Virus genome (UHGV): UHGV-0185506
Reading direction: 5' to 3' (one strand)
DNA from: a virus
Length of the DNA: 18,650 nt
Made by a program: the position numbers and the translations under genes
Notes under the pieces: model-generated
The model's input: the letters and a program-made list of their open reading frames with translations, nothing else
The model's database searches: none
Told to the model about the DNA's origin: nothing
Shown here: piece after piece, positions 5,160 to 18,650 of the stretch
Numbering within the stretch: the first letter of the stretch is position 1
Layout of the letters: the number at the start of each line of letters is the position of its first letter

Positions 5160-6815
5160 ATGAGTACCACAACACGAAAATTTAAAACCATTATCACTGA
5201 TACTGGTGCCCAAAAATTAGCTCAGGCCGCCGCGCCAGATGGTAAGCCTGTCCGCCTGACTCACATGGCCGTGGGCGACGGTGGCGGCACGTTGCCCACA
5301 CCAGACAGTAAGCAGACCTGTCTGGTGCATGAGGTGTGGCGACATACCGTTAATCGCGTCATCCTGGACGCAACACATCAGAACCGCATTATTGCGGAGC
5401 TGGTTATTCCTCCTGAAACGGGCGGATTCTGGGTCCGGGAAATTGGTGTGTTTGATGAGCACGGTGATTTAATTGCGGTGGGCAATACTGCCGAAAGTTA
5501 CAAGCCAACCGTTGCCGAAGGGTCCGGACGTGCGCAAACATTTCGTACCATCTTGACCGTATCCAGCACTGCCACCGTGGAGCTTACCGTGGATAACACC
5601 ATGGTTATGGCCACAGTGGATTACGTGGATGACAAACTGAAAGAGCATGAACAGTCACGACGTCACCCGGACGCCTCGTTGACCGCAAAAGGTTTTACTC
5701 AGTTAAGCAGCGCGACCAACAGTGAATCTGAAACGCTGGCTGCAACTCCGAAAGCGGTTAAGGCAGCGTATGACCTTGCTAACAGAAAATACACCGCTCA
5801 GGACGCCAGCACGGGGCGAAAAGGTCTTGTCCAGTTAAGCAGCGCCACTAACAGTGATTCGGAAACGCTTGCTGCGACTCCGAAAGCAGTGAAAGCAGCG
5901 AATGACAATGCAAACAAGCGAGTACCTAAAGGAGCGGGATTAAATGAGTACGCCGAAAATATAAGTGATATTGCTACTGATTTACGTACGCGTGGTGGCT
6001 TTTTTAATGCTCCCTCAGCAAAGAATGGAATGCCTGGAGGACACACCTGGAAGCACTACATCAACTCTGCACACAGCAATACTCAGGGATACAATACTGT
6101 TATTGGCATTGATTTTAATGGAGATGTAATCGGTTTTGCGGCAGTTTGCGCAGGTGTTTTTAAGGGGTGGAAGTTGATTCATCATGACGGGTATAGCAAC
6201 TTCCCGGTAGGCGCTGCGATCCCGTGGCCTTCTGATTCAGTACCAACAGGCTATGCAATTATGCAGGGGCAGACTTTTGATAAAGCAGCCTATCCCTTGC
6301 TCGCAGCAGCTTATCCGTCAGGGGTGATTCCAGATATGCGCGGCTGGATAATCAAGGGCAAGCCCGCCAGCGGGCGTGCTGTATTGTCACAGGAACAGGA
6401 CGGGATTAAATCGCATACTCACAGTGCCAGTGCGTCAAATACGGATTTAGGAACGAAAACGACCAGTTCATTTGATTACGGCACGAAGACAGTCAGTACG
6501 TTTAACCACGGAACAAAAACCACTAATACAACTGGTAACCATACACATACCATTTACAGAGGGAATGCCAATACTAATGGTGAAACCGGAAAAACAGGTT
6601 TTGACAACCCATCGTTTAATGGCACATCAGGAGCTGCCGGGAATCATGCCCACACGGTAGATATCGGCTCACATAATCATACGGTTGGTATTGGTGCCCA
6701 TACGCACACAGTGGCATTAGGTGCGCACGGGCACACCATCACGGTAAATGCTACGGGTAATTCAGAGAACACCGTAAAAAACATTGCATATAACTATATT
6801 GTGAGGCTCGCATGA
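5160..6815 (+). CDS. H: Tail fibre protein H: conserved P2-type N-terminus, mosaic C-terminus with HxH (gp37-like) repeats
   Basis: N-terminus [23 protein letters not shown]... and duplicated [22 protein letters not shown] motifs are hallmarks of P2-type fibres. C-terminus [36 protein letters not shown]...NYIVRLA matches the HxH-repeat ends of Stf/gp37-type fibres. Confidence 0.9.
5696..5898 (+). repeat. Imperfect tandem direct repeat of about 75-80 bp inside H, encoding the duplicated QLSSATNS(E/D)[14 protein letters not shown] motif
   Basis: Two near-identical DNA blocks starting near 5696 and 5819 (…cagttaagcagcgc…gaaacgct…gctgc…actccgaaagc…). Confidence 0.8.
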
Positions 6816-7678
6816 TTAAGTTAATTCTTTCAGAGCCAGTCCATGAAATGGCAGATGCGTTTAAACGCGTTTTTGGCAATACCGACAATGTGGACGTTGT
6901 AGAAAAACCATTTGAAGCAATCTCAGAATTTGACTGCATGGTAAGTGCGGCAAACAGTTTCGGGCTAATGGATGGCGGCGTGGATGCTGCCATTACCGCA
7001 TTTTTTGGTACTCAACTACAGACGCGTGTTCAGAATCATATTATTCGTGAATATCTTGGTGAACAGCCCGTAGGGTCTGCTTTTGTTATTGAAACGGGGC
7101 ATAATCATCACCCCTGGCTGGTACATGCGCCAACAATGCGTGTTCCGCTGACAATTGACGGAACAGACGCTGTATATAACGCCACGTGGGCCGCTCTGCT
7201 TGCCATCTTTCAGCACAATAAAAATGCAACGACAGACAGGAAAATAAAAACGGTGGTATTACCTGCAATGGGGGCCGGATGTGGTCAGGTGCCGTTTGAA
7301 AGTGTTGCCCGGCAGATGAAGCTGGCATGGGATAACTTTAATAAAACAGAATCAATTAACTGGGAATACGCATATTCCCGCCAGTGGGCGGTATTTAACA
7401 CATGTGCATACTGCCCCGGTAAATCTGGTTGTCGTTATGCTGATATTAAATATATTGGATGTGGTGATTACCGTACGTATTGCTTACGGTCAGGGCAGGT
7501 ATGTATTAACCCTGAACATCAGGTTGATGACGTGCTGACTAATAATCGCTCTCGCCCGGGGGCACATATACACCAGATTAATCCGGTAAAACCCGTAGGT
7601 AACGTTACCATTGGCGCACACAGCCACGGAAGGAATATCACCATTGGTGCTCATTCCCATACAACCAATAAACAATAA
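6812..7678 (+). CDS. Macro-domain (ADP-ribose binding/hydrolase fold) protein with a Cys-rich, HxH-repeat fibre-tip-like C-terminus
   Basis: ATG overlaps the H stop (ATGA), with SD GAGG upstream. Macro signature: [19 protein letters not shown] (compare NAAN..L..GGGV..AI), LVHAPTM (compare H-VGP), [14 protein letters not shown] (compare FPAISTGIYGYP). C-terminus carries CxxC...C...C and GAHIH/GAHSHG/GAHSHT repeats like the H tip. Confidence 0.6.
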
Positions 7679-7708
7679 TTCTGTCTCTGACATTAAGTAG
7701 AGGTGAAC

Positions 7709-8287
7709 ATGACTTTCAGAATGAGTGCTGAAGCACAAACCATTCGCGTATTTAATTATCTCGATGGTACAAATGAATTTATTGGTGAAAGCGATATGTA
7801 CATTCCACCACATACAGGCTTACCCGCAAACTGTACAGATATTGCACCTCCAGATATTCCGGCTGGCTATGCTGCCGTTTTCAATGCAGACGAAATGAAA
7901 TGGCATCTGATGGAAGACCATCGCGGAAAGACTGTATACGAAACGAAAACAGGAGCAGCAATTTATATTTCTGAGCTTGGAGCATTACCTCCTGACGTAA
8001 CAACAATTTCTCCGACTGGCAATTATCAGAAATGGAATGGTAATGTGTGGGTGGATGATGAAAATGCAGAGCATGATGCGCTTGTCAGAGCAGCTGAGTC
8101 TCAGAAAAAAGAACTACTCAGAAATGCAAGTGAAATAATCACTATCTTGCAGGATGCCGTTGATTTAAGCATTGCGACAAAGGAAGAAATAATGTTACTA
8201 AATGAGTGGAAGATGTATCGTATATTATTGAACAGGATTGATACATCAATGACACTAAATATCCAGTGGCCAACCTCCCCACAGTAA
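7709..8287 (+). CDS. Tail fibre assembly protein (gpG / Tfa family)
   Basis: Position directly after the fibre gene. C-terminal region (…[26 protein letters not shown]) matches the conserved tail-fibre-assembly C-terminal domain. SD GAGGTG before the ATG at 7709; the track start at 7703 is a GTG two codons upstream. Confidence 0.75.
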
Positions 8288-8294
8288 AAAAAAT

Positions 8295-8313
8295 AGCAGG
8301 CGATTCGCCTGCT
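8295..8313. terminator. Bidirectional intrinsic terminator between the convergent assembly and glycosyltransferase genes
   Basis: Hairpin agcaggcg-att-cgcctgct, flanked by an A8 run on the plus strand (a T8 run on the minus strand, directly after the minus-strand gene) and by ttaatt downstream. Confidence 0.7.
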
Positions 8314-8317
8314 TTAA

Positions 8318-9052
8318 TTAATTGCGGCTGGATAGTTTAAATTGTTTAATTTTTGCTTTTATGGTGTTTTTCAGCGAGTACGACGGCACCCATTTTAAAG
8401 CAACCTGCCAAGGACGAGGCGAGCCATGAAAACATACTATTCTGGCGTTTTCAGGCACTGACCCATTGGCCAAACCATCATGTAGTTCAGCATTGAAACC
8501 AATCATTTTAGGTGTGGCAATATTTGCTTTATAACTCACAATAAATCCGGGAAGAACATCCTGCCAACGTTCTGCGTCAGGATATATTTCACTGATAAAT
8601 CCCTGATCACCGTGATAAGGAGGTAATTTATTCCTGGACATTATCTGTTCAGCATTATCCTTGAAAGCATTCCAAGCACGGTATTTTTCCTTTGCTGGAA
8701 TAAACATAATACCAGAAGCAGCGGGAGCATTTTCTTTACCGACGCATGAGAAATCGGTAAGCATTGTCATATTCTGCAAATTGGTGAATTCATGTAGATC
8801 GCCCGTAATAACGGTATCGATATCTATATAAAGTATATCTTCCTTTCCAATAACAGGGTGTTCTGGATTGAATAATTCTATTTTCGCCCACCATCCCGGC
8901 CAATTATAAAGAAGCGGCGCAGTTTCTACTCCCTCAATGTAAACTGCGTCTGTTAAACATACTGAACGAATACCCCTGATTTGCTGGTGTAGCCATTGGG
9001 CATGCTTGGGGGTGAAATCTTTGCTACAACGAAGGACTGAAACAACCAGCAC
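8318..9052 (-). CDS. Putative GT-A fold glycosyltransferase, GT8-like (DxD motif); cargo (moron) gene
   Basis: GTG start at 9052 with SD AGGAG 6 nt upstream. WAKIEL...KEDILYIDIDTVITGDL parallels the remembered LgtC segment ARLKL...DKVLYLDIDVLVRDSL. ASGIMFIPAKEKYRAW parallels NAGVLLINLKKWRR. C-terminal FHGSPRPW resembles the GT8 HxxGxxKPW motif. AT-rich relative to the core phage genes. Confidence 0.5.
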   Translation of the reverse strand: MLVVSVLRCSKDFTPKHAQWLHQQIRGIRSVCLTDAVYIEGVETAPLLYNWPGWWAKIELFNPEHPVIGKEDILYIDIDTVITGDLHEFTNLQNMTMLTDFSCVGKENAPAASGIMFIPAKEKYRAWNAFKDNAEQIMSRNKLPPYHGDQGFISEIYPDAERWQDVLPGFIVSYKANIATPKMIGFNAELHDGLANGSVPENARIVCFHGSPRPWQVALKWVPSYSLKNTIKAKIKQFKLSSRN

Positions 9053-9080
9053 TACTTACTCCTAAATACACAACTGTAGA

Positions 9081-9108
9081 TATATAACTCGCGTTTATGA
9101 TATCACAA
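9081..9108 (-). promoter_or_regulatory. Candidate sigma70 promoter for the glycosyltransferase gene
   Basis: Minus-strand reading gives TTGTGA (-35; plus 9103-9108), a 16-nt spacer, then TATATA (-10; plus 9081-9086), about 25 nt upstream of the SD, in an AT-rich spacer. Confidence 0.35.
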
Positions 9109-9334
9109 ACAAAAGCATAAAACTTACCCACATAAGTAGAGTCATATAGTCTCTGCCAATATAATGAGTGACTATTTCACTAAGCTTTCATCGAAACAAT
9201 AGACCTAGAGTTAAGCTATTAATCACTCTAACAAGGTAGAGATATTGATTTTGCTATACCGACGTTTTGTCAGTACTTCCCCAGCAAGACACAACATGAA
9301 GTCGGCACAGTTTTTGAAGTTATTTAAGGAACAG

Positions 9335-9366
9335 AAAAACCGCTAATCTGATCATTAGCGGTTTTT
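9335..9366. terminator. Bidirectional intrinsic terminator 9 nt downstream of the U stop
   Basis: aaaaa-CCGCTAAT-ctgatc-ATTAGCGG-ttttt: 8-bp perfect stem with A-run and T-run on either side. Confidence 0.8.
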
Positions 9367-9374
9367 GCGTTAAA

Positions 9375-9869
9375 TCAGAACACCCCTTTAACTGAACTGG
9401 CTGCGCTGTTAAGGGATGACGTCACCTTATCTTTGAAGCCGGACAGCATATCACTGAACGATGAGGATTGCAGGCGCTCCCGCAAATCCTCATCACAGCG
9501 TTCAAGAGTCAGTGAAAATTCTATCTTTTTCGCCTTACCGTAGCGATCAAACTCGGAACGGGTCGTATTCGTTTCAGTCAGTACATACATGCCGTAAATC
9601 TGCCCAACACCATCAATCAGAGGCCAGGGGCGTCCTGTATATGCCTGCGTGGTCAGCAACGAAAGCGACACTTCGCCACCTGTAATTTCAGGATAAAGCA
9701 CGCCGGAAAGCACGATGCGATCATCACCTGCGCCGATATACTGCCAGCTTGCTGAACGGTTAACGCGTTCATTTTTCACATGCCGCCAGCTTTTGTTTTG
9801 CTGTAACAGCTGATGCGGCAATGTGCGCAGCTCAAAAACAAACATGCCGTAGATCATCATCATGGCCAT
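9375..9869 (-). CDS. U: Tail protein U (P2 gpU-like)
   Basis: …FVFELRTLPHQLLQQNKSWRHVKNERV…YPEITGG…WPLIDGVGQIYGMYVL matches the remembered gpU. Follows T on the same strand. Confidence 0.85.
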   Translation of the reverse strand: MAMMMIYGMFVFELRTLPHQLLQQNKSWRHVKNERVNRSASWQYIGAGDDRIVLSGVLYPEITGGEVSLSLLTTQAYTGRPWPLIDGVGQIYGMYVLTETNTTRSEFDRYGKAKKIEFSLTLERCDEDLRERLQSSSFSDMLSGFKDKVTSSLNSAASSVKGVF

Positions 9870-9875
9870 GACTCC

Positions 9876-12719
9876 TCAATCTTTATCGTAAAAACTGCCA
9901 CGTCCGGCACGGTCGCGTCGTTCCAATTCTGCCCTGACCATTTCACCGACCAGTTTCGCCAGTTCGCGGGGATTCTGCGTAACAACGTTATGCAGATGAA
10001 CATGAATTTCACCGCCAAATCCGGAGACAACAGGCTCCCGGTTACGGGAAGTTGCAGGAACTGATGCCACTGGCGATCGTATGGCCTCCGCCACCGGGCG
10101 GGAGCTGGCCGCAACAACAGGGACCAGCGCCGGAGGCAGAGGAGTCTGGACCACGGGTGTGATGTTGATTGCGGAAGCAGGCTTACTGACCTGCGCAATC
10201 TTCCGCTCCTGCCACTCCCCACGAACAGCAAGTGCGCGGGGCAGGTTCTTAAAGACAATATCGCCGGGGCCAATGCGTTTTTTCGTCTCATCAACCAGCT
10301 TACCTGTGTTATCAGCAATTTTGCTGAGTCTGCGTAGCGTACCGGTATTGCTGTCTGTGAGCGGTTTGTTGTCTTTGGGTTTATCACCTCCGGTGCCATT
10401 GCCATTTTCCACAAGCTTCGGCGGATTGATTTTCGCCAGGTCCCCCTGAAGCAAGGCAACCTTGTCCTGAAGAATGGCCGCACGCTGTGCGTCTTCGATT
10501 TTCTTGCGCGCCCTTTCCGCTTCATCCGGAAGCACACCGAGCTTTTCAAGTATCCACGCCAGCGTATCCAGCAACATTTTTGCAGGTGTCAGAACAAGTT
10601 GTAACGCACCACCAAGAACGTTACCGAATATCTCGCCAGCACTGGTACATTTATCCAGCGTTTCCTTGCTGGACTCCATCGGTGACAGCAGCGATTTAAA
10701 CCAGTTAAACACCTGGCTTATCCCGCTTCCGATTGCGTCAAAAACAGGACCAAACCGTTCAAAGGTTTCGCGCAACGGGGTCAGCCTTTCCATAATCCCG
10801 CTGAACACCCCGGCAAAAAATGCCCTGATGGGATCCCAGTATTTCCAGATAAGAACGGCAGCTCCGGCAAGCGCAGCCACGATAAGACCAACCGGACTGA
10901 ACAGCGCCCCGATAGCGCCTCCCAGCAAAGAAACGGAACCCGTCACCATTCCCCATAGTGCTGGCAGGAGCCTGACAGCATTCATTGATCTGGTCAGGAG
11001 GGAAAAACCAAGACGCAGTTTTGCCAGTGGACCAGCAAGCACACCAAGAGCAAGCGACAACGAGCCTACGGTTGCAGTCACTGCCAGCAGCGCACCGCCT
11101 GCAATCAGTAGCTGGCGCGTCAGTACAGGATGGGCCTGCGCCAGTGCCGTCACCTTTGAGACCACCCGCGTTAGCCACTGCGTGACAGAACGCAGCGAAC
11201 CGTCAACCAGATCACTGATGCGAATACGAAGACCTTCCCATGCGCTGTCGAGATTTTTCAGGTCGCCATCAAGGTTGTCGGCCATAACCTTTGCTGTGCG
11301 TTCAGCCTCACCGCGTGCGCCCTCAAGTTCTTTTCTCAGTTTGGGTAAGGAACCGTCACCCGCCGCATCAACGAGCGCCATAAACGATGTGAAAGCCTCT
11401 TCCCCGGCGATGTCCTTAAAGAAGGATACCCGGTCAACTTCCCCGTATTTGCGGGTAGCTTTATAAAGGTCAGCCAGCAGATCTTCCATCGGGCGCATTT
11501 TGCCCCCGGCATCCGAGACGGACACGCCCAGCTCTTTCAGAGCTTCTGCCGCCGCCTTTGGCGGTGATGCCAGACGAGCCAGGCTGGCACGCATTGCCGT
11601 CCCGGCATCACTCCCCCTGATGCCCATATTCGCCAGCACGCCCGCCATAGCTGCGGCCTGCTCCAGCGATATTCCCAGCTTACCCGCCACCGGACCTGCA
11701 TATTTCATGGTTTCGCCCAGTGCGCGAAGGTCAGTGTTGGTACGGGTAAACGCTGCGGTGAGTGTGTCACCGACCCGGTCCATCTGGTCAGCAGAAAGGC
11801 CGAACTGCGTCAGGATATTTGAGCCAATATCCGCCGTCTCGCCGAGATCCATACCGCCAGCCGTTGCCATGCTCAGCACGCCGGGAAGCGCAGCCTGAAT
11901 GGCCTGCGGAGTGAAGCCAGCCATTGCAAGAAATGCCTGTCCACTGGCGGCATCGCCTGCGGTGAACTGCGTTTCAGAGCCAAGTTTTAACGCCTGCTCA
12001 CGCAGCGCCTTAAACTGCGGGCTGTTTTTGTCGATTCGCGTCAGTGCCTGAACGCGGGACATCTCTTTCCCGAACCCGATCGCGGGCTGTAAAAAACGCC
12101 CGGCAGCATAGCCGCCCGCCGCTGCCGCACCAATTGCCAGCGCACCACCTGTTTTCAGTTTTCCCGCTGTTTCCTGCGCGCGCGAATACCGCTCACGCGC
12201 CTGCGTTACACGTGCAAGCGCCTGCCGTTCGCGTTCAAGCTGGTTGTTGTATTGTTCGGTGCGTCTGATGGCCTGCTGGATGGTGTTATCACTGCCTGTC
12301 AGGGAAATGCCGTGGCGTTTCAGCTCTCCGCCAAGCTCCCGCATTTTCTGAATTTCCCGTGCGCGCGATTCATTCAGGCGTTCAAGCCGGGTGCTTAACT
12401 GCTGCATCAGCTTTTGTTGTTTTTCGCTGAGCACTGCCCCCGTGCGTTGTAACTGATTAAGGGCGTTAAGTTGGCGTCGTGCTTTCACGATGCCAGCATC
12501 CGCTTTACTGACAGCGTCGCGGGCGCGCTCAAATGATCGCGCCTGACGCTCGAGATTTTTGATCGCCCCCTGCGTTCGCTGGATGGAGTCACCAAACTGC
12601 CCCATCAGGCGGCGTGCGTTTTCGGCAGGTCGGGTCAGCCTGTCAACGGCGCTGAAAGCGACCCGGATATCAAGAGTCTTCATCGTCTGCATTCCCACTG
12701 CGAAGTGCCGCCCGCTCAC
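9876..12719 (-). CDS. T: Tail tape measure protein T
   Basis: 947 aa, Ala/Gln/Arg-rich and coiled-coil-like, with internal hydrophobic segments. Position after E/E' and before U. Confidence 0.9.
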   Translation of the reverse strand: MSGRHFAVGMQTMKTLDIRVAFSAVDRLTRPAENARRLMGQFGDSIQRTQGAIKNLERQARSFERARDAVSKADAGIVKARRQLNALNQLQRTGAVLSEKQQKLMQQLSTRLERLNESRAREIQKMRELGGELKRHGISLTGSDNTIQQAIRRTEQYNNQLERERQALARVTQARERYSRAQETAGKLKTGGALAIGAAAAGGYAAGRFLQPAIGFGKEMSRVQALTRIDKNSPQFKALREQALKLGSETQFTAGDAASGQAFLAMAGFTPQAIQAALPGVLSMATAGGMDLGETADIGSNILTQFGLSADQMDRVGDTLTAAFTRTNTDLRALGETMKYAGPVAGKLGISLEQAAAMAGVLANMGIRGSDAGTAMRASLARLASPPKAAAEALKELGVSVSDAGGKMRPMEDLLADLYKATRKYGEVDRVSFFKDIAGEEAFTSFMALVDAAGDGSLPKLRKELEGARGEAERTAKVMADNLDGDLKNLDSAWEGLRIRISDLVDGSLRSVTQWLTRVVSKVTALAQAHPVLTRQLLIAGGALLAVTATVGSLSLALGVLAGPLAKLRLGFSLLTRSMNAVRLLPALWGMVTGSVSLLGGAIGALFSPVGLIVAALAGAAVLIWKYWDPIRAFFAGVFSGIMERLTPLRETFERFGPVFDAIGSGISQVFNWFKSLLSPMESSKETLDKCTSAGEIFGNVLGGALQLVLTPAKMLLDTLAWILEKLGVLPDEAERARKKIEDAQRAAILQDKVALLQGDLAKINPPKLVENGNGTGGDKPKDNKPLTDSNTGTLRRLSKIADNTGKLVDETKKRIGPGDIVFKNLPRALAVRGEWQERKIAQVSKPASAINITPVVQTPLPPALVPVVAASSRPVAEAIRSPVASVPATSRNREPVVSGFGGEIHVHLHNVVTQNPRELAKLVGEMVRAELERRDRAGRGSFYDKD

Positions 12720-12888
12720 GCCAGCTAACCACTTCGCCGGGCGTCATCATGAAGATTTCGGCGGGCGACCAGTTAAAAATAACGGCAATATCTGCCACAA
12801 AGTCTTCTATGTGCTCAAAGCACACAACCGTGATCAGGCTTCCGTCGCCTGTTCGTTCTTCCCGCCAGAGTCCGCACCGCTCAAAAAA
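12670..12888 (-). CDS. E': E' extension: -1 frame segment fused to E by programmed frameshift to give E+E', overlapping the T start
   Basis: The -1 frame is open from 12918 to 12670 and bridges the E stop to the T start. Slippery heptamer T TTT TTG on the minus strand at 12888-12882, read as N-F-L in frame 0 and as F-F-E after slippage. Confidence 0.7.
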   Translation of the reverse strand, partial: FFERCGLWREERTGDGSLITVVCFEHIEDFVADIAVIFNWSPAEIFMMTPGEVVSWRERAALRSGNADDEDS

Positions 12889-13202
12889 TTTACGGCAACC
12901 ACACATAACTGAATAAAGTCACGGGATGCCATTTTTTTGATCGTCACTTCATCCAGTCGCGGTGATGTCACGCGCGACAACAGCGTAAACATGGATTCCG
13001 CTTTCAGATTCAGCACATCAGACAGCGACAGACCACGCAGGGATCCAGCCTGCTCAATAGCCCCGGTGATCTCCACATACGTGATTTTTTCGTCGCCTCG
13101 CTCAATTGGTTGGGTAAGTTTTACGCCGCGCTCGCTGGTTTCTTTCGCAGTATCAGCAACCACCACAGCGTTTTCAGTATCGGTATTTTTCGTCTCTTTC
13201 AT
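12834..13202 (-). CDS. E: Tail assembly chaperone E (P2 gpE-like)
   Basis: 122 aa, acidic, between the tube gene and T. Contains the T TTT TTG slip site near its 3' end. Confidence 0.8.
   Translation of the reverse strand: MKETKNTDTENAVVVADTAKETSERGVKLTQPIERGDEKITYVEITGAIEQAGSLRGLSLSDVLNLKAESMFTLLSRVTSPRLDEVTIKKMASRDFIQLCVVAVNFLSGADSGGKNEQATEA
12882..12888 (-). other. Programmed -1 ribosomal frameshift slippery heptamer T TTT TTG
   Basis: Plus strand caaaaaa at 12882-12888 gives minus-strand TTTTTTG in the X XXY YYZ register of the E frame. Confidence 0.7.
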
Positions 13203-13256
13203 CAGAAAACTCCTTTCAGTCAGAGGCGACGCACTGCGCCGCCTGCATATTACTTA

Positions 13257-13769
13257 TCAGCCAAGCCCAAGCGCGGAACGGATGCGATCGGGCACAATGT
13301 CCTTGCCGTCCTTCCGGTAAATAAAGTTCAGCAGGTCAATCTCCCACAACGGGCGATCGTTAACACTCAGCTTGTAGTAGGTGTTTTTAATGGCGTAAGT
13401 GTGTGATGTGGCTTCGCCCTGTTTGGCTTCCCCCATATCAATTTCCGTCACACGTCCGCGCATTTCGACTTCATACAGGTCGCTTTCTGCATCGGTGTAG
13501 TATTCACCCGCAAAACGCAGCAGCGTGCCGTCAATCGTGCCACCATACTTAAGGAACAGCTCACGAACTGCGCCCCCCATGACAAAGCTCGCATCAAGCG
13601 CGGAGTCGTCCAGACCGAGATCAATACTTACCGCACCCATCATGCCGCCCCCCCGGTAGCTGTCGGTTTTGCGCGTCAGCTTAGGCAGAGTGACGGACGT
13701 CACCTTACCCACTTCGTTTTCACCATCCACAAACAGCGTAAAAAAGCGAAGATGTTTTGGCACAGCCAT
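13257..13769 (-). CDS. FII: Tail tube protein FII
   Basis: MAVPKHLRF…VTLPKLTRKTDSYRGGGM…LGLDD matches the remembered P2 FII. Start overlaps the FI stop (TGATG). Confidence 0.9.
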   Translation of the reverse strand: MAVPKHLRFFTLFVDGENEVGKVTSVTLPKLTRKTDSYRGGGMMGAVSIDLGLDDSALDASFVMGGAVRELFLKYGGTIDGTLLRFAGEYYTDAESDLYEVEMRGRVTEIDMGEAKQGEATSHTYAIKNTYYKLSVNDRPLWEIDLLNFIYRKDGKDIVPDRIRSALGLG

Positions 13770-14953
13770 CAGGCACCTCCCAACACCGCAAATGCGGGTT
13801 CAAAGTATTCATCAGTAAACGTCTGGTAAAGCTCCATGTCTTCCAGTGGCGGAACGGGCGTATATTTGTAGCGAATACGCACACGCCCCTGACGTAAATC
13901 CGTGGTGCTGTTATCCACCACGTCATACCAGCACTCCGCGCCAATCAGTTTCCCGGCAGTAACCAGTGAATCCAGCTTTGCCCTGATGGCACTGATAACA
14001 TCCTTCACGTTCGCAGGCGTCAGTGGACTGTCGATGGTTTCAAACTGCGCTTCCGCAATTGAATCAGCCAGCACCTGTGCGGTTCGGGTATACACCTCAA
14101 AGATGTAGGCGTTCGTTTCCGGTGTGCGATTGCCCCAGAAGCGGAACCCGTTGCGACGAATAATGGTCGTGATTTCTTTGTTGTTGAGGCTGTTGGCATC
14201 ACTGTCTTCGGCCTGCAACGACCAGAACACATGCCTGGACATTCCCAGCACATTTTTAACCGGAACGTTGGACAGCGATTTGTGCCAGCCCTGCTCATGG
14301 TCAATGTACGCACGAAGGCCGCACGCATAGGCAGGCGCGGGGAACGTTTCGTTTTCGCCACTTTTCGGGTTGTAGGCGATGAAGTCCGGCCATAAGAGCA
14401 TCACTTCACGTTCGTTGAATTTCTGGCGGTAGGTAATCGCTTCAGCCATCGTGTTACAGCCGTGACATGAGGCATACACAAACGCGCGCAGTTTACCCGC
14501 AATCACGCACAGGGATTTTGTCACCGCCTCCGTGTCCAGCTCCGGCGCGGCCAGAATACGCGGACGGTATCCGATGCTTTCATCCTGCTCTGCAACAAGC
14601 AGCGCATACATCCCCGTATAGCTGCCGTCATCCTCAGAACCACCGATAACCAGTTGATCCTGCGTCTTACCGTCTTCTTCTTTGTGTTCAGCCACGCGAA
14701 CGACGATCACCTTTGTGCTCACCTGGTCTGCGATGGCCTTAAGCGCACGATAAAGCGTCCCCGTTGTTCCGCATTTTCCCAGCACGTCATTGACGCGGGT
14801 CAGCAGTGTGGGCTTGTTCAGCGGGAACAGCTTCGCGTCCGCATCATCCGCCGTTGCCACGATACCGATAACGCTGGAATCAACATCGTTAATCGCTGTT
14901 ACCAGGTCGGTATTTTCCGTAACACGGGCACCATGAAAACGAGTTTCACTCAT
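13769..14953 (-). CDS. FI: Tail sheath protein FI
   Basis: Strong match to the remembered P2 FI across its length (…DADAKLFPLNKP…AIADQ…CGLRAYIDHEQGWHKSLSNV…RRNGFRFWGNRT…YTPVPPLE). SD AAGGGG upstream. Confidence 0.95.
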   Translation of the reverse strand: MSETRFHGARVTENTDLVTAINDVDSSVIGIVATADDADAKLFPLNKPTLLTRVNDVLGKCGTTGTLYRALKAIADQVSTKVIVVRVAEHKEEDGKTQDQLVIGGSEDDGSYTGMYALLVAEQDESIGYRPRILAAPELDTEAVTKSLCVIAGKLRAFVYASCHGCNTMAEAITYRQKFNEREVMLLWPDFIAYNPKSGENETFPAPAYACGLRAYIDHEQGWHKSLSNVPVKNVLGMSRHVFWSLQAEDSDANSLNNKEITTIIRRNGFRFWGNRTPETNAYIFEVYTRTAQVLADSIAEAQFETIDSPLTPANVKDVISAIRAKLDSLVTAGKLIGAECWYDVVDNSTTDLRQGRVRIRYKYTPVPPLEDMELYQTFTDEYFEPAFAVLGGA

Positions 14954-15034
14954 AGCTTCAGCCCCTTGTATCCGTTAAATGATTCGGCAACAATCATCAC
15001 CCACCACGCGCGTAATCTCACCCCTGCGCCGTTC

Positions 15035-15051
15035 TTGTCGCCCGGCGACAA
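15035..15051. promoter_or_regulatory. Perfect 17-bp palindrome TTGTCGCCCGGCGACAA in the divergent FI/D intergenic region; candidate activator site
   Basis: Seen directly in the sequence. Centred about 90 nt upstream of the FI ATG and about 68 nt upstream of the D ATG. The function is inferred, not shown. Confidence 0.3.
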
Positions 15052-15110
15052 CAAAAAGCAGTAACCCCGCCCGCACACACATGCGACCATGCCGCACAGG
15101 GAGGGAGCAG

Positions 15111-16220
15111 ATGACCGATACCACCATGCAATTGCTCAGTCAGGGCACAGACCCCGTGAAAATGCCGGATTTTGATATTCTTGCGGAGGGTAAAACGCTG
15201 TCAGGCGTGGCAGAGCGCCTGATGAGCCTGTCACTGACCGACAACCGGGGATTTGAGGCGGACCAGCTCACCATCACGCTGGATGATGCGGATGGTCAGT
15301 TGCAGCTACCGCCACGGGGCGCGCGCCTGACGGTTCTCATTGGCTGGAAAGGAGAACCGCTGACAGAAAAAGGCACTTACATTGTTGATGAAATCGCTCA
15401 CGAAGGACCGCCAGACAGGCTGACAGTTTCAGCCAGAAGCGCAGATTTTCGGGATGAATTTAACGTTAAACGTGAGGTGTCCTGGCATGATGTGACCGTT
15501 GAGCGTGTGGTATCCGCCATCGCTCATCGGTATGGTCTGAAACCGCAAATCAGCGAAATGCTGATGGATATCGAAATCGACCACGCCGACCAGACCGAAG
15601 AAAGCGACATGTCCTTCCTTACGCGCATGGCGGAAATGCTGGGCGCAATCACTACGGTAAAAAGCGGTAATCTGTTATTCATCATGCCAGGCGGTGGCGT
15701 GAACGCGCAGGGCCAGCCGTTGCCCTCGTTCGCCATCACACGCAGCAGCGGCGATCGCCATCAGTTCCGCATTGCTGACCGAGAGGCGTATACGGGGGTA
15801 CGCGCTTACTGGCTTGATCTTAATTACGGGAAAAAGAAAAAAGTCAGCGTGAAACGCCGCAAACCGCAAAAACCCAAAAAGGAGAAAAGCAGCAGCCGTG
15901 AAGGTGATTATATGGAAGGCGCGGAAGGCAATGTGTTTGTGTTACGCAAGACTTATCAGAACGAGCAGGCAGCAAGACGCGCAGCGGCGGCAAAGTGGCA
16001 GCAGCTACAACGCGGAGCCGCATCATTCTCCATCACGCTGGCGCGTGGACGCGCAGAACTCTATCCCGAAATGCATGGCACGGTAGCAGGCTTTAAAAGC
16101 GAGATTGATAATCAGGACTGGATTATTGCAAAAGCCGAGCACACCATTGATAACAGCGGCTTTACCACGCAGCTTGAGCTTGAGGCAAAAATCCCGGAAT
16201 GGATAGCGGAAACAGAGTGA
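15111..16220 (+). CDS. D: Late tail gene D product (P2 gpD-like)
   Basis: ATG at 15111 with SD GAGGGAG. …LSLTDNRGFEADQLTITLDDADG…RSADFRDEFNVKREVSWHD…ITRSSGDRHQFRIADREAYTGVRA…WLDLN… matches the remembered gpD throughout. The track ORF start at 14979 is an upstream extension. Confidence 0.9.
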   Translation: MTDTTMQLLSQGTDPVKMPDFDILAEGKTLSGVAERLMSLSLTDNRGFEADQLTITLDDADGQLQLPPRGARLTVLIGWKGEPLTEKGTYIVDEIAHEGPPDRLTVSARSADFRDEFNVKREVSWHDVTVERVVSAIAHRYGLKPQISEMLMDIEIDHADQTEESDMSFLTRMAEMLGAITTVKSGNLLFIMPGGGVNAQGQPLPSFAITRSSGDRHQFRIADREAYTGVRAYWLDLNYGKKKKVSVKRRKPQKPKKEKSSSREGDYMEGAEGNVFVLRKTYQNEQAARRAAAAKWQQLQRGAASFSITLARGRAELYPEMHGTVAGFKSEIDNQDWIIAKAEHTIDNSGFTTQLELEAKIPEWIAETE

Positions 16221-16261
16221 GCAACTTAGAATAGCGGCAGCACTACGTTAAGGGGGTTGCC

Positions 16262-16522
16262 ATGTTCCGTTGTCCGCTTTGTGGCGCATCTGCCCGTATC
16301 CGCACCAGTCGTTCGGAAAATGATTCAGATACCGTACGGAAAAAATATTACCAGTGTAACAACCTGGAATGCGGCGTATGCTTCTCAACACTGGAAGCTT
16401 TCCATAAATTCACATCGAAACACGCCTCCGGCGTTCACTCTTCAGATGGTATCCCGTGGCATGAGCTGCCAGCTTCACACAGGGGAAACAATCAGATGAG
16501 TTTGCCTTTACCTCAGAATTAA
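16262..16522 (+). CDS. ogr: Late gene transcription activator, Ogr/Delta zinc-finger family
   Basis: MFRCPLCGASARIRTSR…YYQCNNLECGVCF carries the CxxC…CxxC arrangement and N-terminal similarity to the remembered P2 Ogr. SD AAGGGGG upstream. Confidence 0.85.
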   Translation: MFRCPLCGASARIRTSRSENDSDTVRKKYYQCNNLECGVCFSTLEAFHKFTSKHASGVHSSDGIPWHELPASHRGNNQMSLPLPQN

Positions 16523-16712
16523 CAGGCAGAATTGCCGGAGCAACAAAAAAGCGATAGATTACGCGCGGGTGCCTTTCGGCTGATGGTCGGAGGGAATACC
16601 CGAAGGCCAGATGTGGAAAGGCCCCGGAAAACATTTTTGTTTAACCGAGGCCCTAACCGTCTACCCTAAGCAAGTGATAGGTTAGCGCCTCCCCGAAAAA
16701 GGAGCAAGCGCT

Positions 16713-16853: not shown

Positions 16854-16942
16854 GGAAACCGCGACGGGGGAGCAATCCCCCGTCAATCGGTTGCCAGGGT
16901 AAGGTCGATAAGGCACCCTATCTCACAGACATGAACAACAAA

Positions 16943-16974
16943 CCCGCAGCATAAAAACTGCGGGTTTTCTTTTT
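16943..16974 (+). terminator. Intrinsic terminator downstream of the hok-like gene
   Basis: CCCGCAG-cataaaaa-CTGCGGG followed by ttttcttttt. Confidence 0.7.
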
Positions 16975-17120
16975 GGTGTCCTCACCGACTTGAAACAGTG
17001 ATCAGACTATAAGACAAAGCCCACAATGTAGCGGGCTTACTCCCCTCCCCCCACTAAATGTGGACACATCGTGGAACGAAGAGATATAAAACATTATAAA
17101 TCAATTGGTTATTGAAAGAA

Positions 17121-17156: not shown

Positions 17157-17456
17157 TTACTCGTCTTTGGGCGAAGCGTTTTCGACCCGGCTTTTTAACT
17201 TCTGCCCTGGTCTGAAGGTCACCACGCGCCGTGCTGTAATGGGAATATCTTCGCCCGTTTTCGGGTTACGTCCCGGACGTTGATTCTTATCACGCAGATC
17301 GAAGTTACCAAAGCCAGAGAGTTTTACCTGCTCGCCGTTTTCCAGAGCGCGACGGATCTCTTCGAAAAACAGTTCAACCAGTTCTTTGGCATCCCGCTTG
17401 CTAAGCCCAAGCTTATCAAACAGATATTCTGACATTTCAGCTTTTGTAAGCGCCAT
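17157..17456 (-). CDS. ihfA: Integration host factor alpha subunit
   Basis: 99-aa translation ([99 protein letters not shown]) matches E. coli IhfA as I recall it. Confidence 0.95.
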
Positions 17457-17460
17457 AGGT

Positions 17461-18650
<1,190 letters not shown>

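What the first reader, a model, noticed from the sequence alone, without database searches (positions are those of the whole stretch)
9335..15110. Sheath operon FI-FII-E/E'-T-U is inverted relative to canonical P2 order, separating D from U
In P2 as I recall it, FI-FII-E-T-U-D-ogr are co-directional with V-W-J-I-H-G. Here FI through U run on the minus strand and D and ogr on the plus strand. FI and D therefore diverge from a ~157-bp intergenic region, and U ends at a strong terminator instead of being coupled to D. Each junction carries a coherent signal (terminator after U; SDs for both FI and D). This argues for a stable natural rearrangement rather than a random break, but a mis-assembly cannot be excluded from sequence alone.
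Basis: partly seen in the sequence, partly recalled or inferred. Interest (0 to 1): 0.55.

Follow-up and report, generated by a model that had tools for sequence, protein, structure and literature searches.

The report
Normal gene order of P88-like prophages
The flipped tail-sheath gene block is real, but it is the standard, anciently fixed layout of a large and very common group of P2-related prophages (P88-like), found in about one in five complete E. coli genomes, so it is ordinary and not a mis-assembly or a recent rearrangement.

Summary
U, T, E/E', FII and FI lie on the minus strand (9375-14953). D (15111-16220) and ogr (16262-16522) lie on the plus strand. FI and D diverge from a 157-bp spacer, and U ends at a strong hairpin terminator.

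The arrangement is not unusual. The window is a P88-like (genus Xuanwuvirus) prophage next to host ihfA/pheT. The same colinear layout occurs in P88, Chuche, phiSM, Novemvirus phiT5282H, Senquatrovirus SEN5 and Klebsiella phages. It also occurs in 1116 of 5426 complete E. coli genomes.

All 139 sampled loci whose D protein is at least 61% identical to this one have the inverted layout. All 106 loci with D at or below 53% identity (P2, KS5 and others) have the canonical U-D order. Neighbour-joining trees of D, FI and U each contain the split inverted|canonical, which fits one ancient inversion. The junctions carry no repeats above chance.

The spacer holds a conserved Ogr-type box (T[G/C]T-N12-ACA) with -10-like hexamers 44 nt away on both sides. 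P2's pP/pO region has the same geometry. I therefore predict one shared activator site driving FI-U leftward and D-ogr rightward. This prediction is inferred, not shown.

Novelty: already known. Interest: low.

The parts
8318..9052 (-). Moron (244 aa, PHROG_1962 'glycosyltransferase') in a 39.5% GC island (about 8290-9334). It fills the variable slot between the converging ends of the O..G operon and the FI..U operon.
   Evidence: The slot content differs in P88 (invertase plus an alternate fibre cassette) and in other E. coli prophages (O-acetyltransferase).
9335..9366 (-). Intrinsic terminator ending the FI-U operon: 13-bp stem, T run, and an A run on the other side.
   Evidence: I8
9375..9869 (-). 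Tail gene U
   Evidence: Pfam PF06995, E = 4.7e-38. 46% identical to P2 U.
9876..12683 (-). Tape-measure gene T (935 aa from the ATG at 12683; the longest ORF starts at the GTG at 12719).
   Evidence: The P88 annotation has the same length.
12670..13202 (-). Tail chaperone genes E (12834-13202) and E+E'. The -1 frameshift occurs at T_TTT_TTG (12888-12882), and the E' frame ends at 12670.
   Evidence: The site is homologous to the annotated P2 frameshift.
13257..13769 (-). Tail tube gene FII
   Evidence: Pfam PF04985, E = 7.5e-47
13769..14953 (-). Tail sheath gene FI
   Evidence: Pfam sheath domains. 46% identical to P2 FI.
14954..15110 (.). 157-bp divergent FI/D spacer, predicted to be a bidirectional late promoter region.
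15033..15053 (.). Ogr-type activator box. In the register shared by the clade it is TCT-N12-ACA (15033-15050, followed by ACAAAAAG). An exact TGT-N12-ACA lies 3 nt further on (15036-15053). The palindrome TTGTCGCC-C-GGCGACAA spans 15035-15051.
   Evidence: The box is conserved in position and sequence across 49-52 diverged representatives. In the P88 genome the extended box occurs followed by AAAA(A)G only in the P/O and FI/D spacers.
14993..14998 (-). -10-like hexamer GATGAT for the FI-U operon, starting 44 nt from the box centre. The predicted transcription start is near 14986.
   Evidence: 29 of 49 representatives have a -10-like hexamer at exactly this offset. The transcription start is inferred, not mapped.
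15085..15090 (+). -10-like hexamer GACCAT for D(-ogr), starting 44 nt from the box centre. The predicted transcription start is near 15097.
   Evidence: 18 of 49 representatives at exactly this offset. Inferred, not mapped.
15111..16220 (+). Tail/baseplate hub gene D (369 aa) with its own Shine-Dalgarno sequence GGAGGGAG. An in-frame upstream ATG at 14979 is probably not used.
   Evidence: Chuche annotates the same start.
16262..16522 (+). Late activator gene ogr, 41 bp after D with no terminator between them. The first plus-strand terminator after it is at 16940-16967.

Best explanation
The window carries a P88-like (Xuanwuvirus) P2-family prophage in its normal configuration.

In an ancestor of a large enterobacterial clade of Peduoviridae, the FI-FII-E/E'-T-U block was inverted once, together with its late promoter. 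The clade includes Xuanwuvirus, Novemvirus, Senquatrovirus and many prophages of Klebsiella, Enterobacter, Serratia, Xenorhabdus and other hosts. The arrangement then became fixed.

The inversion had three consequences:
- U now ends at its own terminator and faces the end of the tail-fibre genes.
- The gap between the two converging operon ends became a slot for accessory genes (morons).
- FI and D now diverge from a spacer of about 120-195 bp.

Inferred step: that spacer contains one dyad-symmetric Ogr-type activator box (T[G/C]T-N12-ACA). The box is centred about 55-56 nt from two oppositely oriented weak promoters. One Ogr-bound site would therefore switch on FI-U leftward and D(-ogr) rightward late in infection, as the single activator site between P2's divergent pP and pO promoters does. 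D kept late expression because the symmetric pF box travelled with FI and landed next to it.
For: Shown:
- Gene content, strands, spacer and terminator are as described.
- 11 phage records are colinear in a single piece at 94-96% identity.
- The annotations of P88, Chuche, phiT5282H and SEN5 show the same orientation.
- The FI/D junction is present in one piece in 1116 of 5426 complete E. coli genomes.
- 139 of 139 loci with D at 61-100% identity are inverted (84 and 55).
- 27 + 79 loci with D at 45-53% identity are canonical.
- The split inverted|canonical is present in neighbour-joining trees of D, FI and U.
- Divergence from P2 is broadly similar for most proteins inside and outside the block: V 46%, W 44%, J 55%, FI 46%, FII 44%, U 46%, D 49%, with T and E lower at 32-33%.
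- No junction repeats exceed chance.
- P88 and phiSM form plaques, and P88 has a contractile tail by electron microscopy (PMC5285337, PMC6456863).

Regulatory inference:
- The conserved box consensus TgT..gcgACAACaaa sits at a fixed position across representatives that differ by at least 12%.
- -10-like hexamers start exactly 44 nt from the box centre on both sides (29/49 and 18/49), with almost none at offsets 10-43.
- In P88 the extended box followed by AAAA(A)G occurs only in the P/O and FI/D spacers.
- P2 RefSeq annotates one activator site for pP and pO, with both transcription starts 55-56 nt from its centre.
- The TGT-N12-ACA consensus for P2 late promoters, and a shared palindromic site for divergent PP'/PO' in Smp131, are stated in PMC3931495.
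Against: - No transcription-start or Ogr-binding data exist for this clade in the sources I could search. The promoter model rests on sequence conservation only.
- The window's D-side hexamer GACCAT matches TATAAT at only 3 of 6 positions. The predicted leader of D would be only about 14 nt.
- The motif T[GC]T-N12-ACAAC alone is not rare: about 1.1 matches are expected by chance in the window and 2 are found. The support comes from positional conservation, not from the motif count.
- Sampling of loci was seeded by similarity to D, so rare exceptions (re-inversions) could have been missed.
- The trees are simple neighbour-joining trees without bootstrap support.
Confidence: 0.9

Rival explanations
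1. Mis-assembly, or a rearrangement specific to this strain (a recent inversion caused by an insertion sequence or by recombination).
For: None found.
Against: - The identical junction is found in one alignment piece in 1116 complete E. coli genomes, in 11 phage genomes and in 80 IMG/VR contigs.
- No insertion sequence and no inverted repeats lie at the junctions.
- Both junctions carry conserved functional signals.
Confidence: 0.01
2. A programmed invertible segment: the FI-U block flips back and forth, catalysed by a phage invertase such as the one that lies next to U in P88.
For: P88 and phiSM encode a DNA invertase directly adjacent to the 3' end of U (PMC6456863).
Against: - The window has no invertase in that slot; it holds a glycosyltransferase-like moron.
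- No inverted repeats flank the block.
- All 139 loci of the clade show one orientation only.
- In the other orientation D would lose the upstream box, and the FI promoter would face the fibre genes.
- The P88 invertase is next to an alternate tail-fibre cassette, which is its usual substrate.
Confidence: 0.01
3. Module replacement rather than in-situ inversion: an ancestor acquired a foreign FI-U cassette that inserted in the opposite orientation.
For: - P2-like phages are mosaic. Here the N-terminal part of the fibre gene H is 72% identical to P2, against 25-60% for the other tail proteins.
- Tail operon rearrangements are reported in Smp131 (PMC3931495).
Against: - FI, FII and U are about as far from P2 (44-46%) as V, W and D outside the block (44-49%).
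- The FI and U trees give the same inverted|canonical split as the D tree. This fits co-descent of the block and its neighbours.
- An ancient replacement from a sister lineage cannot be formally excluded.
Confidence: 0.06
4. The layout is as described, but D is not driven by the shared Ogr box. It has an independent, possibly Ogr-independent, promoter, and the box serves FI only.
For: - The D-side -10-like element of the window is weak (GACCAT).
- The simple sigma-70 scan finds no promoter in the spacer.
- The distance from the box to FI (about 75-91 nt) matches P2 pF, so the box clearly belongs to FI.
Against: - The conserved CGCGCG..TG(A/G)AA(T/C)CAT block on the D side is symmetric in position with the FI side: the hexamer starts at +44 in 18/49 representatives, against almost none at offsets 10-43.
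- P2 late promoters normally lack good sigma-70 elements.
- D is an essential late structural gene and needs late expression.
Confidence: 0.25

Closest known systems
Escherichia phage P88 and relatives (Peduoviridae, genus Xuanwuvirus; also Chuche, PhiR44_2, Citrobacter phiSM, P884B11)
   Same: 94-96% nucleotide identity, colinear in one piece over 85-97% of window 8000-16700. Same order and strands: U-T-E'-E-FII-FI on minus, D and ogr on plus. Same 157-bp spacer.
   Different: The slot between the tail-fibre assembly gene and U differs. P88 has an alternate fibre cassette and a DNA invertase; this window and Chuche have a 244-aa glycosyltransferase-like moron. The left half of the activator box carries a few substitutions.
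Bacteriophage P2 F operon (FI-FII-E-E'-T-U-D, promoter pF), genus Peduovirus
   Same: Same genes in the same internal order. Same T_TTT_TTG E/E' frameshift. 32-49% protein identity. An Ogr-type box sits about 83-90 nt upstream of the FI ATG. ogr follows D.
   Different: In P2 the block is co-directional with V-G and with D, the U stop overlaps the D start, and one promoter serves FI through D. Here FI-U is flipped, U ends at a terminator, and D has its own Shine-Dalgarno sequence and promoter side.
P2 divergent late promoters pP/pO, which share one activator binding site
   Same: One dyad-symmetric site lies between two divergent late operons. The -10 elements are about 43-44 nt, and the transcription starts about 55-56 nt, from the site centre on each side (compared).
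   Different: In P2 this geometry is mapped experimentally and is annotated for the head genes only. Here it is predicted from conservation and applies to tail genes FI and D. P88-type genomes appear to have two such bidirectional regions and no separate pV.
Novemvirus phiT5282H, Senquatrovirus SEN4/SEN5, and unnamed Klebsiella and other enterobacterial prophages
   Same: Same inverted FI-U block with D and ogr divergent. D is 63-80% identical. A conserved box lies in the spacer.
   Different: Different genera and hosts. Spacer length ranges from 122 to 195 bp. Different morons.
Stenotrophomonas phage Smp131 (P2-like with rearranged late operons)
   Same: It shows that late tail operons of P2-like phages can be reshuffled while keeping TGT-N12-ACA promoters, and that one palindromic site can be assigned to both divergent promoters (PMC3931495).
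   Different: A different rearrangement (V, W moved relative to J-I-H-G), a different host and a distant lineage.

Membership tests
P2-family (Peduoviridae) contractile tail module | Homologues of FI (sheath), FII (tube), T (tape measure), U and D in one locus | tested here: met
   Pfam hits above the gathering score for FI, FII, T, U and D. 32-49% identity to the P2 proteins by tblastn.
P2-family (Peduoviridae) contractile tail module | E/E' tail chaperone pair made by a -1 frameshift at T_TTT_TTG just upstream of T | tested here: met
   Slippery heptamer at 12888-12882 (-). The -1 frame continues to 12670 and overlaps the T start by 14 nt. The frameshifting itself was not assayed.
P2-family (Peduoviridae) contractile tail module | Canonical P2 order with U directly followed by and coupled to D on the same strand | tested here: not met
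   U is on the minus strand and D on the plus strand, 5.2 kb apart. This is a property of genus Peduovirus and many other genera, not of the whole family.
Genus Xuanwuvirus (P88-like phages) | High nucleotide identity and colinearity with P88. The ICTV genus criterion of about 70% identity over the whole genome is recalled from general knowledge. | tested here: inconclusive
   96% identity over 85% of window 8000-16700 to P88. The window holds only the late half of the prophage, so whole-genome identity cannot be computed.
Genus Xuanwuvirus (P88-like phages) | Inverted FI-U block with a divergent FI/D spacer | tested here: met
   Same layout in the P88 annotation and in all close relatives.
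Ogr/Delta-dependent late promoters | An Ogr/Delta zinc-finger activator encoded by the phage | tested here: met
   Pfam Ogr_Delta, E = 2.4e-14, for 16262-16522. 36% identical to P2 Ogr.
Ogr/Delta-dependent late promoters | A dyad TGT-N12-ACA upstream of the late operon | tested here: met
   Exact TGT-N12-ACA at 15036-15053, and a box in the clade's shared register at 15033-15050. Conserved in position across the clade. The consensus is cited from PMC3931495.
Ogr/Delta-dependent late promoters | Box centred about 55 nt upstream of a mapped, activator-dependent transcription start | not testable with these tools
   Only -10-like hexamers at +/-44 nt from the centre can be shown. No transcription-start or binding data are available.

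The most novel reading that the evidence does not exclude
In the P88-like clade the whole late regulon is reduced to two bidirectional promoter regions (P/Q <-> O...G and U...FI <-> D-ogr). Each would be governed by a single dyad-symmetric Ogr box. The ancestral inversion was tolerated, or selected, because it carried the symmetric pF box next to D. It also put ogr under short-range positive feedback and created a transcriptionally quiet converging gap that became a hot spot for morons.
Probability: 0.55. Interest if true: 0.3.

Novelty: already known. Interest (0 to 1): 0.1.

Why it matters
It matters mainly as a caution. P2 itself is not representative of the gene order of all P2-family prophages. 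About 20% of complete E. coli genomes carry the 'inverted' type, so annotation pipelines and readers should not flag it as a rearrangement or an assembly error.

A modest positive point is the predicted shared activator box between FI and D. It gives a simple, testable model of how an operon inversion can be absorbed without losing co-regulation.

Tried and rejected
- Inverted or direct repeats at the two junctions as footprints of a recombinase or insertion sequence: none beyond chance. The repeat finder pairs do not pair the junctions. The local alignment score was 21 against a shuffle mean of 18.5, and 32 of 200 shuffles scored at least as high.
- The simple sigma-70 scan found no promoter in the spacer. 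This is expected for activator-dependent late promoters.
- The Rfam scan of the window found only the host sRNA STnc540, and nothing in the region of interest.
- Literature: the P88, phiSM and SEN4/5 papers do not comment on the inversion. Casjens & Grose 2016 (PMC4969182) is the paper most likely to describe P2 subcluster gene orders, but it is not held.
- I first miscounted the box as TGT-N9-ACA. The regex search showed an exact TGT-N12-ACA.
- Counting the motif in the window alone is not significant: about 1.1 matches expected, 2 found. The argument rests on cross-clade positional conservation.

Full report
**What is there**

The ORF map, Pfam scans and tblastn against P2 show a P2-family late region. 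On the plus strand lie lysis genes, R, S, V, W, J, I, the fibre gene H (5160-6815), a Macro-domain ORF (6812-7678) and a fibre assembly gene (7703-8287). On the minus strand lie a 244-aa ORF (8318-9052), U (9375-9869), T (9876-12683), E (12834-13202), FII (13257-13769) and FI (13769-14953). The plus strand then resumes with D (15111-16220) and ogr (16262-16522).

E carries the P2-type slippery heptamer T_TTT_TTG at 12888-12882 on the minus strand. The -1 frame continues to 12670 and overlaps the start of T. The inside of the block is therefore entirely canonical.

The FI/D spacer is 14954-15110, exactly 157 bp. D has the Shine-Dalgarno sequence GGAGGGAG and FI has AAGGGG. U is followed by a 13-bp-stem hairpin with a T run at 9366-9335. 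The right end of the window is host DNA: ihfA at 17157-17456 and pheT at 17461-18540. Homology to phage genomes stops near 16985. The window is therefore the ogr-proximal half of an integrated prophage.

**How it compares with P2**

The P2 RefSeq record has FI-FII-E-E'-T-U-D-ogr co-directional with V-G. U and D overlap, and a single promoter pF serves the operon. The window really does differ from P2 by an inversion of FI through U.

**Is it unusual? No.**

- Megablast of 8000-16700 against 50,697 phage records gives 11 records that match in one colinear piece over 85-97% of the query at 94-96% identity. They include P88, Chuche, PhiR44_2, Citrobacter phiSM and Xuanwuvirus P884B11.
- The annotations of P88 (type species of genus Xuanwuvirus) and Chuche show the same strands.
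- A more sensitive search with a 1.6-kb probe spanning the FI/D junction finds the junction intact in 30 phage records. These include Enterobacter phage phiT5282H (Novemvirus, 72% identity), Salmonella phage SEN5 (Senquatrovirus, 66%) and several Klebsiella phages. Their annotations confirm the layout.
- In RefSeq complete E. coli genomes the junction probe matches in one piece at 95-99% identity in 1116 of 5426 genomes.
- P88 and phiSM are inducible or spontaneously released plaque-forming phages, and P88 shows a contractile tail by electron microscopy (PMC5285337, PMC6456863).

Mis-assembly and strain-specific rearrangement are excluded.

**How old is it, and did it happen once?**

I fetched loci encoding D relatives from IMG/VR and from one genome per GTDB species. 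I scored the strand of FI and U relative to D by tblastn.

- Every one of the 139 loci whose D is 61-100% identical to the window's D has FI on the opposite strand, 140-250 bp upstream of D. These loci come from Escherichia, Salmonella, Citrobacter, Enterobacter, Klebsiella, Kosakonia, Pantoea, Serratia, Pectobacterium, Brenneria, Symbiopectobacterium, Edwardsiella, Hafnia, Yersinia, Providencia, Morganella, Xenorhabdus and Photorhabdus.
- Every one of the 106 loci with D at 45-53% identity has U directly upstream of D on the same strand. These include P2, Burkholderia KS5 and others.
- Neighbour-joining trees of D (outside the block) and of FI and U (inside it) each contain the exact split inverted|canonical.
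- Most proteins inside and outside the block are about equally distant from P2, at roughly 44-55% identity; T and E are lower at 32-33%.
- No repeats above chance link the two junctions.

The simplest reading is one ancient in-situ inversion that became a marker of the clade. Caveats: the trees are simple NJ trees without bootstrap, and sampling was seeded on D.

**How it probably works (inferred)**

The inversion separated D from pF read-through, so D needs its own late promoter. Across the clade the FI/D spacer keeps a box T[G/C]T-N12-ACA followed by ACAAAA. Its centre lies 72-91 nt from the FI start, compared with 83 nt in P2 pF. In the window the box in the clade's shared register is 15033-15050. 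Substitutions relative to P88 also create an exact TGT-N12-ACA at 15036-15053 and the palindrome TTGTCGCC-C-GGCGACAA.

I examined 49 representatives that differ from each other by at least 12%. In these, -10-like hexamers (A2, T6, at least 4 of 6 matches) start exactly 44 nt from the box centre on both sides: 29/49 towards FI and 18/49 towards D. Almost none occur at offsets 10-43. In the window these hexamers are GATGAT (14998-14993, minus strand) and GACCAT (15085-15090). They predict transcription starts near 14986 and 15097, which puts the box at about -55/-56 for both promoters.

This is the geometry annotated for P2's divergent pP/pO pair, where one activator site lies 55-56 nt from both starts. 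TGT-N12-ACA is the published consensus of Ogr-dependent promoters (PMC3931495).

In the P88 genome the extended box followed by AAAA(A)G occurs only twice, in the P/O spacer and in the FI/D spacer. S and V overlap, so there is no separate pV region. P88-type phages thus seem to run their late genes from two bidirectional regions.

No terminator separates D from ogr, and the first plus-strand terminator is at 16940-16967. D and ogr are therefore probably co-transcribed late. None of this is experimentally mapped. The window's D-side -10 is weak, and the motif count in the window alone is not significant.

**The left junction**

Because FI-U now runs towards the fibre genes, two operon ends converge between 8287 and 9375. 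That gap is a variable slot. Here it holds a 39.5% GC island with a PHROG_1962 glycosyltransferase-like gene, shared with phage Chuche. In P88 it holds an alternate fibre cassette plus a DNA invertase. In many E. coli prophages it holds an O-acetyltransferase. It is the positional counterpart of P2's Z/fun locus.

**Verdict**

The feature is the ordinary, long-fixed architecture of a very common prophage lineage whose genomes have been public since 2014. I rate it 'already known', with low interest. The only mildly new element is the predicted shared Ogr box for FI and D, which needs transcription-start mapping.

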